In this document: one piece after another, positions 2,304-35,081 of the stretch
Position numbering within the stretch: position 1 is the first letter of the stretch
Layout: every line of letters starts with the position of its first letter
Assembly: GCF_036365525.1 (NCBI RefSeq)
Contig: NC_090411.1
Coordinates: 26,796,819-26,860,818, forward strand
Length of the DNA stretch: 64,000 nucleotides
Direction of reading: 5' to 3'
From: Heterodontus francisci
Lineage: Eukaryota
Notes under the pieces: generated by a model
Told to the model about the DNA's origin: nothing
What the model saw: only the letters and a program-made list of their open reading frames with translations
The model's database searches: none
Program-made: the position numbers and the translations under genes

Positions 2304-5300
2304 ATGGATTCTCAGATTTGTCAAAACTATCACCAGGATTGTGAGGCTGCTGTCAACAAGCAGATTAATGTGGAACTTACTGCTTCCTATCTTTATTTTT
2401 CTTTGGTGAGTGTTGTCTCTGGGTTTACAATAAAATCTATTATGTTGAGGTGAACTCTCTTCCTTCAACCTAACTTGTCTTATTGTATGTTTGAGTTTTG
2501 TTGTCTGCATATGTCTTTTTTTAACTTAATTTTTGTAGTAATTTTACTGCAATTAATATAATTGTGGTGTTAGTATCAATTGGTTTGTTAATTGACTATT
2601 CTGAGACTGATATATGTGGAGCAAAAGTGTCCTTGCAACTTGAAATTTAGACTTTAGAATTCACTCAGGATGTGGCTGATATTTCCTATCTATCCCTCTA
2701 GTTGCCACAACTGAGTGGTTTAGTAGGGTATGTCAGAAGGTAGTTGAGTCAGTTATGTTTGTGCTTGACTGGAGTTACCTATTGGCCAGGTAAGGACTTT
2801 TTTTTTAAGTTGGTTTGTTATTTAGCAATTTGACCCCTTCACAATTGCTTTTTCTGGTATTTCTAGTTTGGTGGGTTTTTTTTTCAAGATTTAACATAAA
2901 TTCTCTGGATTACCAATCCAGTAACATAATTGGTATGCCAGTCTTTTGTCTTTAAATTTGAAAATGCTCTGCTGCTAACATTAAGGAAATTGTGCAGTTT
3001 CCTTGGTGAGCTGTGAACAATCCTAACTGTTGAACAATGGAAGGTTTACAATCCTTCTTGGAAGGCCTGTGAGCATTGCACTTGAAGGGATTTGTTTTGA
3101 ATTCCCACTTCCATGGTGTCTATAAAGTTGCCCATCTGTGTTAATTGTATTCTGGTTACTATTTCAAATTTTCTTTAACTGGAAATATTTTTTAATGGAA
3201 AATGGAAAATTTGATGAAATTTAAGCATCAGACTGGAAATTTCATCAGGATTGCTACTAACTTCCTCAAATTTTCTGGTGTGTTTGGTGATTAATTTGGA
3301 GTTGGATGGTTTTTTCACTTCAGTTCTACCATCCATACAAACCATCCAAAACACTAAGGAAGGCAAGAGATTTTAATTTCATTATTGAGCAGTCAGTTTA
3401 ACTGAAAGGCAGGAAGACTATTTGGCTCAAACCTTTTTGAGGAGTAAACGGAGGCCAATTGTGTGAATGAAATTTAAATTGTTCTTTCAGATGTCTTTCT
3501 TTGACCGGGATGATGTCGCCCTCAACAACTTCTCCCAGTTCTTCAAACATCATTCCCATGAGAAGCAGGAACATGCGGAGAAGCTGATGAAATTCCAGAA
3601 TCAGCGTGGAGGCCGCATCCTCCTACAGGATGTGAAGGTTAGAAATGGCTGCTTTAATGTCAGTGCAATCTTTTCCATCAACATATCGTTTTCAAAATTT
3701 GAAGGGAGTAAAGAATTTCTTTCTTTAGCTTCACCTGTCCAATCTCATTCCTGGATAATTCTACACACCAATGTCTGTCTTGCTGTGTGGGCTGAGCTAC
3801 AGCAGAGATACGCTCTGAATATGTTTTGACTTCCTTGCACATGTTAGTTCTATAGCTCTCCCACAAAATAGTGATAGTGGTAGAACCATCAGTTATGGCA
3901 CAGAAAGAGGCCATACAACCATGTCTGTGCTGGCAGAAAAACAAAAACTAGCTGCCCAATCTAATCTCTCCTTCCAGAACCTGGTCTGTAGCTTTGCAGG
4001 TTACAGCACTTAAGGTGCAGGTCCAAGTACCTTTTTTTTTTTTAAAAAGAGTTGAGGGTTTCTGCCTCCACCACTGATCTGGGCAGGGAATTCCAGACTC
4101 CTACCACCCTTTGGGTGAAAAGGTATTTCCTCTTATCTCTTCTGATTATTCTACCAAACACCTTAAATCTGTGCCTCTCCACAAGGGAGAAATGGGTCCT
4201 TCCTGTCTAATCTATCTAGGCCCATCAAATTTGATGATCCTGAACTCTCCTTTAGTGCAATTGAGTATAAATAGACAAGTTGAAATAGCTGAACCTTCCA
4301 ACAGTATAACTGTCTTTTCCCATTTCAGAAACCAGAGAGGGATGAGTGGAGCAATGGTCTACTGGCAATGCAGGTTGCCCTCAGTCTGGAGAAGAATGTG
4401 AACCAGAGTTTGCTGGATCTACACCAACTTGCCACCACCTGTACTGACCCTCATGTAAGCTTCTCTTCCTAATTCTGGTCACTAATAGACTAGTGTATTG
4501 TTTCTTTCATTTTTTTTTAAGTGATCAACCAGAAATGGACCAGTTTGACTCCAAACAGATTTGTTCTTGTCCATGGATAGCCATTGATCCAAAGTTAACA
4601 TTACATACTACTTAGCAGTTGGTTAAAATCTGGATTAACTATAGAACTTGATTTCAGCTGTGGCTTTGTTAGCACTCTGCCTGAGTCGAGAGGTTGTGGG
4701 GGCAAAAAGCTGAAGTGTTGTACTTCAAAACTGGACTGTCATACATTGGTTCAGATGAAATGTTCTACACTTGTGAGGAACAAGAGGATGGCCAGAGTGA
4801 GGGTAGGGCCGATCAGGGATAGTGGAGGGAACTTGTGCCTGGAGTCGGAGGAGGTAGGGGAGGTCCTAAATGAATACTTTGCTTCAGTATTCACGAATGA
4901 GAGGGACCTGGTCGTGTGAGGACAGTGTGGAACAGGCTGATATGCTCTAACTGGTTGAGGTTAAGAGGGAGGATGTGCTGGAAATTTTGATTGATATGAG
5001 GACTGATAAATCCCTGGGGCCAGACAGGATATACCTAAGGATATTACGGGAAGCGAGGGAAGTGATTGCTGCGCCTTTGGCGATTATCTTTGCGTCCTCA
5101 CTGTCCACTGGAGTAGTACTGGATGATTGGAGGGTGGCAAATGTTGTTCCCTCTTTCAAGAAAGGGAATGGGGATAACCCTGGGAATTATAGACCAGTCA
5201 GTCTTATGTTGGTAGTGGGCAAATTATTGGAGAGGATTCTGAGACAGGATTTATGATTATTTGGAAAAGCATGGTTTGATTAGAGACAGTCAGCATGGCT

Positions 5301-32304: not shown

Positions 32305-35081
32305 ATGGATTCTCAGATTTGTCAAAACTATCACCAGGATTGTGAGGCTGCTGTCAACAAGCAGATTAATGTGGAACTTACTGCTTCCTATCTTTATTTT
32401 TCTTTGGTGAGTGTTGTCTCTGGGTTTACAATAAAATCTATTATGTTGAGGTGAACTCTCTTCCTTCAACCTAACTTGTCTTATTGTATGTTTGAGTTTT
32501 GTTGTCTGCATATGTCTTTTTTTAACTTAATTTTTGTAGTAATTTTACTGCAATTAATATAATTGTGGTGTTAGTATCAATTGGTTTGTTAATTGACTAT
32601 TCTGAGACTGATATATGTGGAGCAAAAGTGTCCTTGCAACTTGAAATTTAGACTTTAGAATTCACTCAGGATGTGGCTGATATTTCCTATCTATCCCTCT
32701 AGTTGCCACAACTGAGTGGTTTAGTAGGGTATGTCAGAAGGTAGTTGAGTCAGTTATGTTTGTGCTTGACTGGAGTTACCTATTGGCCAGGTAAGGACTT
32801 TTTTTTTAAGTTGGTTTGTTATTTAGCAATTTGACCCCTTCACAATTGCTTTTTCTGGTATTTCTAGTTTGGTGGGTTTTTTTTTCAAGATTTAACATAA
32901 ATTCTCTGGATTACCAATCCAGTAACATAATTGGTATGCCAGTCTTTTGTCTTTAAATTTGAAAATGCTCTGCTGCTAACATTAAGGAAATTGTGCAGTT
33001 TCCTTGGTGAGCTGTGAACAATCCTAACTGTTGAACAATGGAAGGTTTACAATCCTTCTTGGAAGGCCTGTGAGCATTGCACTTGAAGGGATTTGTTTTC
33101 AATTCCCACTTCCATGGTGTCTATAAAGTTGCCCATCTGTGTTAATTGTATTCCGGTTACTATTTCAAATTTTCTTTAACTGGAAATATTTTTTAATGGA
33201 AAATGGAAAATTTGATGAAATTTAAGCATCAGACTGGAAATTTCATCAGGATTGCTACTAACTTCCTCAAATTTTCTGGTGTGTTTGGTGATTGATTTGG
33301 AGTTGGATGGTTTTTTCACTTCAGTTCTACCATCCATACAAACCATCCAAAACACTAAGGAAGGCAAGAGATTTTAATTTCATTATTGAGCAGTCAGTTT
33401 AACTGAAAGGCAGGAAGACTATTTGGCTCAAACCTTTTTGAGGAGTAAACGGAGGCCAATTGTGTGAATGAAATTTGAATTGTTCTTTCAGATGTCTTTC
33501 TTTGACCGGGATGATGTCGCCCTCAACAACTTCTCCCAGTTCTTCAAACATCATTCCCATGAGAAGCAGGAACATGCGGAGAAGCTGATGAAATTCCAGA
33601 ATCAGCGTGGAGGCCGCATCCTCCTACAGGATGTGAAGGTTGAAAAAACTAGCTATCTAATCTCTCCTTCCAGAATGTGCAGGTCCAGATACCTTTTTAA
33701 ATGAGTTGAGGGTTTCTGCCTACACCACTGATCTGTGCAGGGAATTCCTGACTCCTGCCACCCTCTGGGTGTAAAGGTTTTTCCTCATTGCCTCTAATCC
33801 TTCTACCAAACACTTTAAATCTGTGCCCCCTGGTAATTGACCTCTCCTCCAGGGAGAATGGGTCCTTCCTGCCTAATCTATTTAGGCCCATCAAATTTGA
33901 TCCTGAACTTATTTCAGTGGGACTGAGAAATAGACATGGAAGCAATCCTGAAATAGCTGAAACTTCAAGCAGTATAACTGTCTCTTCCCATTTCAGAAAC
34001 CAGAGAGGGATGAGTGGAGCAATGGTCTACAGGCAATGCAGGTTGCCCTCAGTCTGGAGAAGTATGTGAACCAGAGTTTTCTGGATCTACACCAACTCGC
34101 CACCACCTGTACTGACCCTCATGTAAGCTTCACGTCATCCTAATTCTGGTCACTAATAGACTTGTGTATTGTTTCATTCACTTTGAAGTAATCAACCAAA
34201 ATTAGACTCCAAGCAGATTAATAATCACTATATTCTAGTGTAGCGATAGACACTGATCCAAAGTTAACATACTTAGCAGTTGGTGAAAATATCTATTAAA
34301 AATAGAACTTGATGCAACTTGATTTCAGCTGTGGTTTTGTTAGCACTCTGCCTGAGTTGAGAGCTTGTGGGGGCAAAAAGCTGAAGTGTTGCACTCCAAA
34401 ACTGGACTGTTATACATTTGGTTCAGATGAAATGTTCAACCAAGGCCCCATCTGAGTGAGTGGTGTAAAAGATTGCATAGCAATCTTTGAACATGGGTTA
34501 TCCCAGTGTTTTGGCCAATATCTAATTTTTTTTTTTTTTTTTTTTTTCCCCCTCCCAAAATCCATAGTTTCTGGGAGCTTGCTGTGCACAAATTGGCTGC
34601 TGCATCTTATTACTAACAGTGACACTTCAAAAGTACTTCGTTGGCTGTGCAGTGTTATGGGATGTCCTGTGAATGTCAGTTTTGTTTCACATCTTTCTCA
34701 GCCTCTGAACATTCAAAACTGGTTTACCATTAATGAAATACTTTGAAATTTCATTTAAAAGCTGCTGTGTTTGAGTGACCATAACCTGACATAATGCAGC
34801 ATACCACATCACTTCCTGAAAGCAATCTCCTACTCAAAGCAGGAGTGAGAATTGGCTGCAGAAAAACTGATCTTCATATTTGGCATCTTGCAACTGTGTA
34901 TATGTAATATATTTTTCTTCCCTTCCAGCTGTGTGACTTCCTGGAGACTCACTATTTGGATGAGCAGGTGAAGGTGATCAAGCAACTTGGGGACTACATC
35001 ACCAACCTGAAGCGTCTGGGAGCTCCTGAGAATGGGATGGGAGAGTACCTGTTTGACAAGCTCTCTCTAGAGAGTAGCTAA
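32305..35081 (+). CDS. Ferritin (M/middle-chain-like) copy 3, 175 aa; exons 32305-32406, 33492-33638, 33997-34122, 34929-35081
   Basis: Intact spliced ORF; exons 1-2 identical to copy 1; exon 3 ...[14 protein letters not shown]...; exon 4 ends DKLSLESS* (3-nt deletion); AATAAA at 35213. Confidence 0.93.

What the first reader, a model, noticed from the sequence alone, without database searches (positions are those of the whole stretch)
2304..35081. Expanded array of intact ferritins that all carry the L-chain-type E62K loss of the ferroxidase centre
Seen: all three intact copies read [15 protein letters not shown], with AAG (Lys) at 3563-3565, 18195-18197 and 33564-33566. Established: this is human H-chain Glu62 (frog M Glu58), the bridging di-iron ligand. 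Lys here is the hallmark of the mammalian L chain, where it salt-bridges Glu107, and is part of the classic ferroxidase-null mutant E62K/H65G. The other ligands (E27, Y34, E61, H65, E107, Q141) are retained, and the position of frog M Asp140 is Val. The four-fold channel reads DKLSL (Leu, as in mammalian L) rather than DKHT/S. The L/M nucleation glutamates at 57 and 60 are His. Inference: a multi-copy, catalytically dead ferritin subfamily on an M-chain scaffold, kept intact and amplified. It could be an independently evolved or ancestral light chain, or a cage repurposed for a non-iron-oxidising role.
Basis: partly seen in the sequence, partly recalled or inferred. Interest (0 to 1): 0.85.

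Follow-up and report, generated by a model that had tools for sequence, protein, structure and literature searches.

The report
Shark-wide light-chain-like ferritin gene array
The horn shark has 13 intact tandem ferritin genes in which lysine replaces a key iron-binding glutamate, a change also found in four other shark orders; they likely make a poorly oxidising 'light' partner chain for iron cages that are probably built in egg cells, which would bear on how vertebrate light chains arose.

Summary
Confirmed, and larger than reported. The window holds the last 3 of 13 intact four-exon ferritin genes of the horn shark, all with AAG (Lys) at human-H position 62, plus a broken copy. An intronless retrocopy also has K62. 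The subfamily is one clade (100/99) found in 12 shark species of 5 orders; 75 of 76 fetched members have K62. dN/dS among the 13 copies is 0.19. The genes lack an iron-responsive element. Their upstream 300 bp is homologous to that of a separate array of at least 86 Glu62 ferritins (16 of 16 tested), but not to H, M-like or lower-subunit genes. The largest shark ferritin cluster is reported as ovary-specific (Sahm 2024, Greenland shark). Best reading: a light-type partner chain for oocyte ferritin cages. Loss of activity, expression and co-assembly are untested. Whether it is the orthologue of tetrapod FTL is unresolved: the grouping is 90% with residue 62 kept and 0.6% without it.

The parts
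2004..2303 (+). Promoter and short U-rich 5' leader of copy 1: TATAAA at 2197, TGATGTCA at 2152, CAGCTG at 2112; no IRE; homologous to the upstream DNA of the Glu62 array genes
2304..7353 (+). Ferritin copy 1 (11th of 13 in the array), exons 2304-2405, 3491-3637, 4329-4454, 7198-7353; 176 aa; K62
3563..3565 (+). AAG, Lys62 of copy 1
16586..16885 (+). Promoter and 5' leader of copy 2 (TATAAA at 16790); no IRE
16886..20025 (+). Ferritin copy 2 (12th of 13), exons 16886-16987, 18123-18269, 18917-19042, 19870-20025; 176 aa; K62
18195..18197 (+). AAG, Lys62 of copy 2
32305..35081 (+). Ferritin copy 3 (13th of 13), exons 32305-32406, 33492-33638, 33997-34122, 34929-35081; 175 aa (one codon shorter at the C-terminus); equals annotated XP_067876105.1; K62
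33564..33566 (+). AAG, Lys62 of copy 3
38196..41968 (+). Broken copy: stop in exon 1, non-canonical splice sites, 19-nt deletion removing codon 62; keeps the family promoter
24906..33645 (+). Recent 8.7-kb duplicate (99.2%) of the segment that ends at window 3645; both ends fall in intron 2, so exons 1-2 of copies 1 and 3 are identical
48823..54284 (-). Flanking gene: two exons of a Frag1/DRAM/Sfk1 family gene (TMEM150-like; the gene name is recalled)

Best explanation
These are 13 intact, selected, IRE-less shark ferritin genes whose bridging ferroxidase ligand Glu62 is Lys, and they likely encode a ferroxidase-poor, stabilised 'light' chain that would co-assemble with chains of the neighbouring Glu62 array in 24-mer iron cages, probably in oocytes. 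Shown: the substitution, its conservation across sharks, purifying selection, absence of an IRE, and a promoter shared with the Glu62 array (at least 86 genes against 13). Inferred from established ferritin chemistry: Lys62 removes the ligand that bridges iron sites A and B and pairs with Glu107, as in mammalian L chains, which would slow oxidation at this subunit and raise stability. Inferred from the shared promoter: both arrays are expressed together and independently of cytosolic iron, to stock or buffer iron for the egg and embryo. Origin: slightly more likely a shark-stem duplicate of the array gene that gained K62 by one G-to-A change (about 50%) than the direct orthologue of the coelacanth/tetrapod L chain (about 40%).
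For: K62 in 13 of 13 intact genes, in the retrocopy, and in 75 of 76 fetched cluster members from 12 species; E107 in 76 of 76. One clade at 100/99 with residue 62 left out, with Heptranchias branching first. dN/dS 0.19 within the array, against 0.18 among 10 Glu62 array genes. Horn shark versus sevengill identity is 88.6% for K62 and 89.0% for the array. The predicted fold is an ordinary ferritin (pLDDT 89.6; TM 0.94-0.96). Rfam finds an IRE at the H and M-like genes but none in the window or in 3 of 3 array loci. Upstream 300 bp aligns with 16 of 16 array genes (z 9.8-17.9) and 0 of 4 other paralogues (z -0.3 to 0.9). dS to the array is 0.75, against 2.0 to the M-like gene and saturated to H; a DNA tree joins K62 and the array at 83/85, not starred. 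The largest Greenland shark ferritin cluster is reported ovary-specific and at least 250 My old (10.1101/2024.09.09.611499, passage). A retrocopy implies transcription in the germ line at some time (inference). The K62-E107 salt bridge in L chains is described in PMC11396501 (passage). The Xenopus 'light chain, oocyte isoform' Q7SXA5 has the same E27/K62/H65 set. Further decay of the centre has occurred in some lineages: E141 in 49 carpet-shark proteins, and R, C or Y at 65 in 6 of 76.
Against: No activity, expression or binding data exist for these proteins. The documented null is the double mutant E62K/H65G; I found no passage on the single change. E27, Y34, H65 and Q141 have been kept for a long time in most lineages, which fits residual metal binding as well as a dead site. 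The cavity glutamates 57 and 60 of mammalian L are absent (His in the window; 1 and 4 of 76 have Glu), so an L-like nucleation role is weakly supported. The ovary report concerns another species and does not separate K62 from E62 copies. No K62 member was listed for Pristiophorus, rays or chimaera, so sharks and their kin may do without it. The 76 proteins were chosen by similarity to a K62 query, include isoforms and partial models, and are not independent.
Confidence: 0.6

Rival explanations
1. Origin rival with the same function: the K62 genes are the shark orthologues of sarcopterygian FTL, so K62 arose once in the jawed-vertebrate ancestor as an oocyte light chain and sharks keep its least-changed form.
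For: All 23 L chains in the tree set, from coelacanth to mammals, have K62; coelacanth, alligator, Bufo and Xenopus keep E27, and Xenopus and salamanders keep H65. K62+L is not rejected (AU p 0.42) and reaches 903 of 1000 bootstraps with residue 62 kept. K62, array and L share V20, E162, G166 and L173; K62 and L share I8, L37 and K62. The chromosome also carries BAX-like, glycogen synthase, Snf7 and ubiquitin-conjugating genes, which recalls human 19q13 (gene order recalled).
Against: With residue 62 dropped, K62+L falls to 6 of 1000, against 435 for K62+array and 503 for array+L. The K62 promoter is shared with the Glu62 array and has no IRE, whereas mammalian FTL has one (recalled). No ray, chimaera or ray-finned K62 chain was among the 3 x 120 listed hits, which would need several losses. 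K62 recurs independently in marsupial FTHL17-like proteins, a lizard, a sevengill array copy and a sponge (PMC8395497, passage). No ferritin was found in 90 kb at the BAX-like gene or in 100 kb from the last listed glycogen-synthase exon.
Confidence: 0.4
2. The chain is not dead: it keeps a one-metal site (E27, H65, E107, Q141) and forms self-sufficient, slowly oxidising homopolymers or binds another metal.
For: E27 in 61 of 62 covered, Y34 in 61 of 62, H65 in 70 of 76, E61 in 71 of 76. The channel residues D131 and E134 are kept. The classic null needed two changes.
Against: These positions also vary within the clade (R, C or Y at 65; E141; A or Q at 61; one E27D), as expected if the centre is released from constraint. 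A Lys at the bridging position should repel iron (established chemistry, recalled).
Confidence: 0.2
3. The cage has been repurposed for a non-iron role, such as a structural or storage protein of the egg or an immune protein.
For: Amplification, loss of the IRE and a changed active site; ferritins with degenerate centres and no IRE are common in invertebrates, and their function is open (PMC8395497, passages).
Against: The iron-entry channel is intact. The rate of evolution equals that of the Glu62 array. No new motif or signal peptide is evident in the 176-aa sequence.
Confidence: 0.12
4. K62 is a passenger change spread by concerted evolution, or an assembly artefact, in genes on their way to decay.
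For: Copies are 96-99% identical over multi-kb blocks, and broken copies lie beside the array.
Against: K62 is fixed across 5 shark orders in a species-ordered clade; dN/dS is 0.19; 13 of 14 genes in the array are intact; the retrocopy agrees.
Confidence: 0.04

Closest known systems
Sarcopterygian ferritin L chain (mammalian FTL; Xenopus 'ferritin light chain, oocyte isoform' Q7SXA5; coelacanth XP_006010823/826)
   Same: K62 with E107, and L173. The Xenopus chain also keeps E27 and H65 and is named an oocyte isoform.
   Different: Only 60-62% identical. The window has Q141, not E141, and lacks cavity E57/E60. It has no IRE. It is a tandem array of 13. A sister relationship is unresolved.
Shark amplified ferritin clusters (Sahm et al. 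2024, bioRxiv 10.1101/2024.09.09.611499; the Glu62 array at C41:31.65-32.25 Mb here)
   Same: Tandem amplification on the same chromosome, homologous IRE-less promoter, K22, similar dN/dS.
   Different: The array keeps E62 in all 18 array loci read. It lies 5 Mb away and is 73% identical. The passages I read label copies FTL or FTH1 by similarity and do not mention the ferroxidase site (0 occurrences).
Frog M / teleost middle subunit
   Same: 72% identity; best PDB sequence hit.
   Different: M keeps E62; frog M has D144 and E57. The trees do not join the two.
Frog L / teleost 'lower subunit' (K27 type)
   Same: Also has a degenerate ferroxidase centre.
   Different: It loses E27, E107 and Q141 but keeps E62. 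The horn shark has a separate gene of this type at C41:32310856-32317324.
Engineered human H mutant E62K/H65G
   Same: E62K.
   Different: The shark chain keeps H65 and is a natural single-ligand change.

Membership tests
Vertebrate ferritin | Four-helix bundle plus E helix; PF00210; four-exon gene | tested here: met
Sarcopterygian/mammalian L chain (FTL) | Lys62 with Glu107 retained | tested here: met
   13 of 13 genes; 75 of 76 and 76 of 76 in relatives
Sarcopterygian/mammalian L chain (FTL) | K62-E107 salt bridge formed in the structure | not testable with these tools
   The fold tool returned no coordinates
Sarcopterygian/mammalian L chain (FTL) | Further ligand changes (27, 65, E141) | tested here: not met
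   The window keeps E27, H65 and Q141. Basal L chains also keep E27 or H65; 22 of 23 L chains have E141; carpet-shark K62 chains have E141
Sarcopterygian/mammalian L chain (FTL) | Cavity nucleation glutamates 57, 60, 61, 64 (positions recalled) | tested here: not met
   H57 and H60; E61 and E64 kept
Sarcopterygian/mammalian L chain (FTL) | 5' iron-responsive element (mammalian feature, recalled) | tested here: not met
   None in the window; found at the H and M-like genes as positive controls
Sarcopterygian/mammalian L chain (FTL) | Clade with L chains | tested here: inconclusive
   6 of 1000 without residue 62, 903 of 1000 with it; AU p 0.42
Sarcopterygian/mammalian L chain (FTL) | BAX-FTL-GYS1 neighbourhood (recalled) | tested here: inconclusive
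   BAX-like and glycogen synthase genes are on the same chromosome but over 10 Mb away; no ferritin in the 190 kb read beside them
Sarcopterygian/mammalian L chain (FTL) | No ferroxidase activity; forms heteropolymers with an active chain | not testable with these tools
   Needs recombinant protein
M (middle) subunit | Complete ferroxidase centre with E62 | tested here: not met
M (middle) subunit | Clade with frog or teleost M | tested here: not met
   Separate starred clades; backbone open
Shark IRE-less amplified ferritin system | Shared promoter and 5' leader, no IRE | tested here: met
   16 of 16 array genes, 0 of 4 controls
Shark IRE-less amplified ferritin system | Ovary-specific expression | not tested
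   No reads were laid; reported only for the Greenland shark cluster
Lower subunit (K27 type) | K27, Q107, S141 | tested here: not met
   The window has E27, E107 and Q141; a separate gene has the K27 set

The most novel reading that the evidence does not exclude
The vertebrate ferritin light chain arose before sharks and bony fish split, by a single E62K change in an IRE-less oocyte ferritin. Sharks keep that founding state as an amplified array paired with an active array under one promoter, and the mammalian somatic, IRE-controlled FTL is a later re-use of an egg protein.
Probability: 0.3. Interest if true: 0.75.

Novelty: new variant of a known kind. Interest (0 to 1): 0.55.

Why it matters
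Fish are usually said to have H and M chains, and L chains are treated as a tetrapod feature (recalled). Here a K62 chain has been conserved across sharks since at least the split of sevengill and galeomorph sharks, and databases label it 'heavy' or 'middle'. It differs from an active chain at essentially one ligand, so it is a natural test of whether E62K alone makes a light chain. It makes the origin of FTL, once or twice, directly testable. It also shows that counts of shark 'FTH1/FTL copies', which come up in longevity genomics, mix subfamilies with different active sites.

Tried and rejected
Expression: the run search with the retrocopy listed no RNA holder on record (24 runs, none with half of the words), and no reads were laid, so expression and the raw-read state of the codon remain open. 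A branch-specific dN/dS with the M-like or H gene as outgroup failed through saturation (negative or undefined branches) and is not used. A possible vestigial IRE near 2040-2065 got no Rfam support even at E 10 and lies upstream of the TATA box; rejected. Intron homology between K62 and array genes: only repeat-like hits. Flank annotation by Pfam was partial (149 of 274 filtered frames; 140 of 194 plus 2; the 158 frames listed were not scanned). No gene was identified on the upstream side of the K62 array. The Bcl-2 family search was swamped by dispersed copies. Complex prediction was not run, because any two ferritin chains would pass by likeness to solved cages. Earlier findings: none for this genome. 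Ten paper searches showed no paper describing a K62 shark ferritin; most subscription journals are not in the library. PMC11719527 and PMC13025143 (passages) held nothing on the question.
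Full report
OBSERVATION. The three codons are AAG in the context [15 protein letters not shown]. The three genes have four exons of 102, 147, 126 and 156 (or 153) bases with GT-AG junctions and open frames. 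Against frog M (PDB 1mfr) the Lys replaces Glu58, which is human H Glu62, and Val replaces Asp140. The window lies at G000:C41:26796819-26860818. Named proteins on a contig of the same length identify the genome as Heterodontus francisci, and five annotated proteins match gene models that I built.

EXTENT. Reading 140 kb upstream gave 10 more genes. All 13 are intact and all have AAG at codon 62. A fourteenth copy at 38196-41968 is broken and has lost codon 62 in a 19-nt deletion. Two further broken copies lie inverted 300 kb upstream. A 5'-truncated, intronless retrocopy on C10 has K62 and the predicted junctions. A K62 pattern matched 16 places genome-wide against 0 for the control, none of them in the other array. 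The array turns over by unequal exchange: blocks of 2-20 kb are 96-99% identical, and copies 1 and 3 share an 8.7-kb block at 99.2% that ends in intron 2. I could not check the copy number against reads.

OTHER FERRITINS OF THE GENOME. The family search scored 150 of 382 candidates. It gave 90 hits at C41:31.65-32.32 Mb, of which 86 are of one array type (counted by hand; a lower bound). All 18 array loci that I read have E62. At the array's end lie four single genes: a K61/Q65/K140 gene, a K64 gene, an M-like gene with a full centre, and a K27 'lower subunit' gene. The H gene is on C14.

CONSERVATION. The nearest relatives are K62 proteins of other sharks, annotated 'heavy' or 'middle'. Of 76 proteins taken from these clusters and hits (12 species, 5 orders, isoforms and partial models included), 75 have K62 and 76 have E107. 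The one exception is a Glu62 array model. H65 is kept in 70; carpet sharks have E141 (49 proteins). With residue 62 left out, the group is one clade at 100/99 in both trees, with the sevengill shark first. The 100-row tree used rows I picked from about 440 fetched proteins, and the 45-row tree is a subset of it. No K62 chain from rays, chimaera, sawshark or ray-finned fish was listed in three searches that show only the best 120 hits each; this is weak evidence of absence. Among the 13 copies, mean dN is 0.0135 and dS 0.070, a ratio of 0.19 (my Nei-Gojobori script; pairs are not independent). There are 21 codons with only silent variation and 17 with replacements; 10 array genes give 0.18. The predicted fold is an ordinary ferritin subunit.

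REGULATION. Rfam finds an IRE upstream of the H and M-like genes and a degenerate one about 3.9 kb before the K64 gene, but none in the window or in three array loci. The 300 bp before the K62 start codon align with the same region of 16 of 16 array genes (scores 108-148, shuffled maxima 53-76), and with 0 of 4 other paralogues. The shared elements include a TGATGTCA motif and a TATA box. Synonymous distance to the array is 0.75, to the M-like gene 2.0, and to H saturated, with similar GC3. The two arrays therefore descend from one IRE-less gene, or one took its promoter from the other. Sahm et al. (bioRxiv 10.1101/2024.09.09.611499; passages) report ferritin clusters at least 250 My old in Greenland and white sharks, with the largest cluster expressed specifically in the ovary. 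The text has no occurrence of 'ferroxidase'.

MECHANISM. Glu62 belongs to the ferroxidase centre, and E62K with H65G abolishes activity in human H (PMC6929972, passage). In L chains, Lys62 and Glu107 form a stabilising salt bridge in place of the iron site (PMC11396501, passage). I infer that the shark chain oxidises iron poorly and is more stable. The shared promoter suggests that it is made alongside active chains, at a gene ratio of roughly 1 to 7, and joins them in mixed cages that store or buffer iron in the egg without IRP control. The steps from sequence to activity, tissue and co-assembly are all inferred. Against a full L-like role, the cavity glutamates 57 and 60 are absent and the other ligands are mostly kept.

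ORIGIN. All 23 coelacanth and tetrapod L chains in my set have K62, and the basal ones keep E27 and sometimes H65. The Xenopus oocyte light chain Q7SXA5 has E27, K62 and H65 like the shark chain. The protein tree cannot decide. With residue 62 dropped, K62+L appears in 6 of 1000 bootstraps, K62+array in 435 and array+L in 503. With it kept, K62+L appears in 903. Neither constraint is rejected (AU 0.42 and 0.48). K62, array and L together reach 89/80, 36% and 64% in the three trees and share four residues, so both shark arrays may be co-orthologues of FTL. E62K needs one transition and recurs in marsupials, a lizard, a sevengill array copy and a sponge (PMC8395497, passages). The chromosome carries BAX-like, glycogen synthase, Snf7, ubiquitin-conjugating and Frag1-family genes, which recalls human 19q13, but no ferritin was found in the 190 kb read beside the first two. 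I put independent origin at about 50% and orthology at about 40%.

VERDICT. The feature is real, old and selected. It works most likely like an L chain but fails or leaves open several membership tests for FTL, so I do not file it there. Ferroxidase-poor chains and shark ferritin amplification are both known. A shark-wide, single-ligand K62 subfamily sharing a promoter with an active array did not appear in ten paper searches. New variant of a known kind; interest 0.55.

Noticed in passing
G000:C41:32310856-32317324 (+), L065: Ferritin gene of the frog-L/teleost 'lower subunit' type (K27, Q65, Q107, S141); the chimaera has a similar protein (P0447). Sharks thus hold a second kind of degenerate chain.
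   Followed up: partly
G000:C41:32255248-32259658 (-), L059: Intact single ferritin gene with K61, Q65 and K140, no IRE in its 300-bp upstream, own TATA promoter; groups near K62 and the array in the DNA tree (87/92).
   Followed up: partly
G000:C41:32261230-32275081 (+), L060-L061: Ferritin gene with K64 and no ATG at the expected place; a degenerate IRE lies about 3.9 kb upstream.
   Followed up: no
G000:C41:31.65-32.25 Mb: Array of at least 86 Glu62 ferritin genes between Snf7/ubiquitin-conjugating genes and the single ferritin genes; left part on the minus strand, right part on the plus strand.
   Followed up: partly
window 2358-2360 (codon 19; human H position 22): Both arrays have Lys where H and M-like chains have Arg. 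This Arg is recalled as the NCOA4-binding residue, so both arrays might escape ferritinophagy.
   Followed up: no
G000 genome-wide: At least 150 Bcl-2 family matches on many contigs, most covering only profile positions 1-63: a dispersed repeat or retrocopy family carrying part of a Bcl-2 domain.
   Followed up: no
G000:C14, C27, C41: Three multi-exon glycogen synthase genes; the C14 gene lies 1.3 Mb from the H ferritin gene.
   Followed up: no
G000:C41:26366531-26375123 (-), L078-L079: Two broken, inverted copies of the K62 family 300 kb upstream; one keeps K62 and the family promoter.
   Followed up: partly
L049:4975-8670 (-) and L055:6515-8227 (+): Open frames of 568, 663 and 571 aa in the flanks with no Pfam match.
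   Followed up: no
window about 4770-6530 (intron 3 of copy 1): Sequence resembling a LINE reverse-transcriptase remnant (recalled likeness; not tested), which accounts for the long intron.
   Followed up: no
window 48823-54284 (-): Exons of a Frag1/DRAM/Sfk1 (TMEM150-like) gene directly downstream of the array.
   Followed up: partly
P0003, P0045, P0058, P0026 (sawshark and sevengill array proteins): Some Glu62-array copies have N62 or K62, so position 62 has changed more than once within shark arrays.
   Followed up: no
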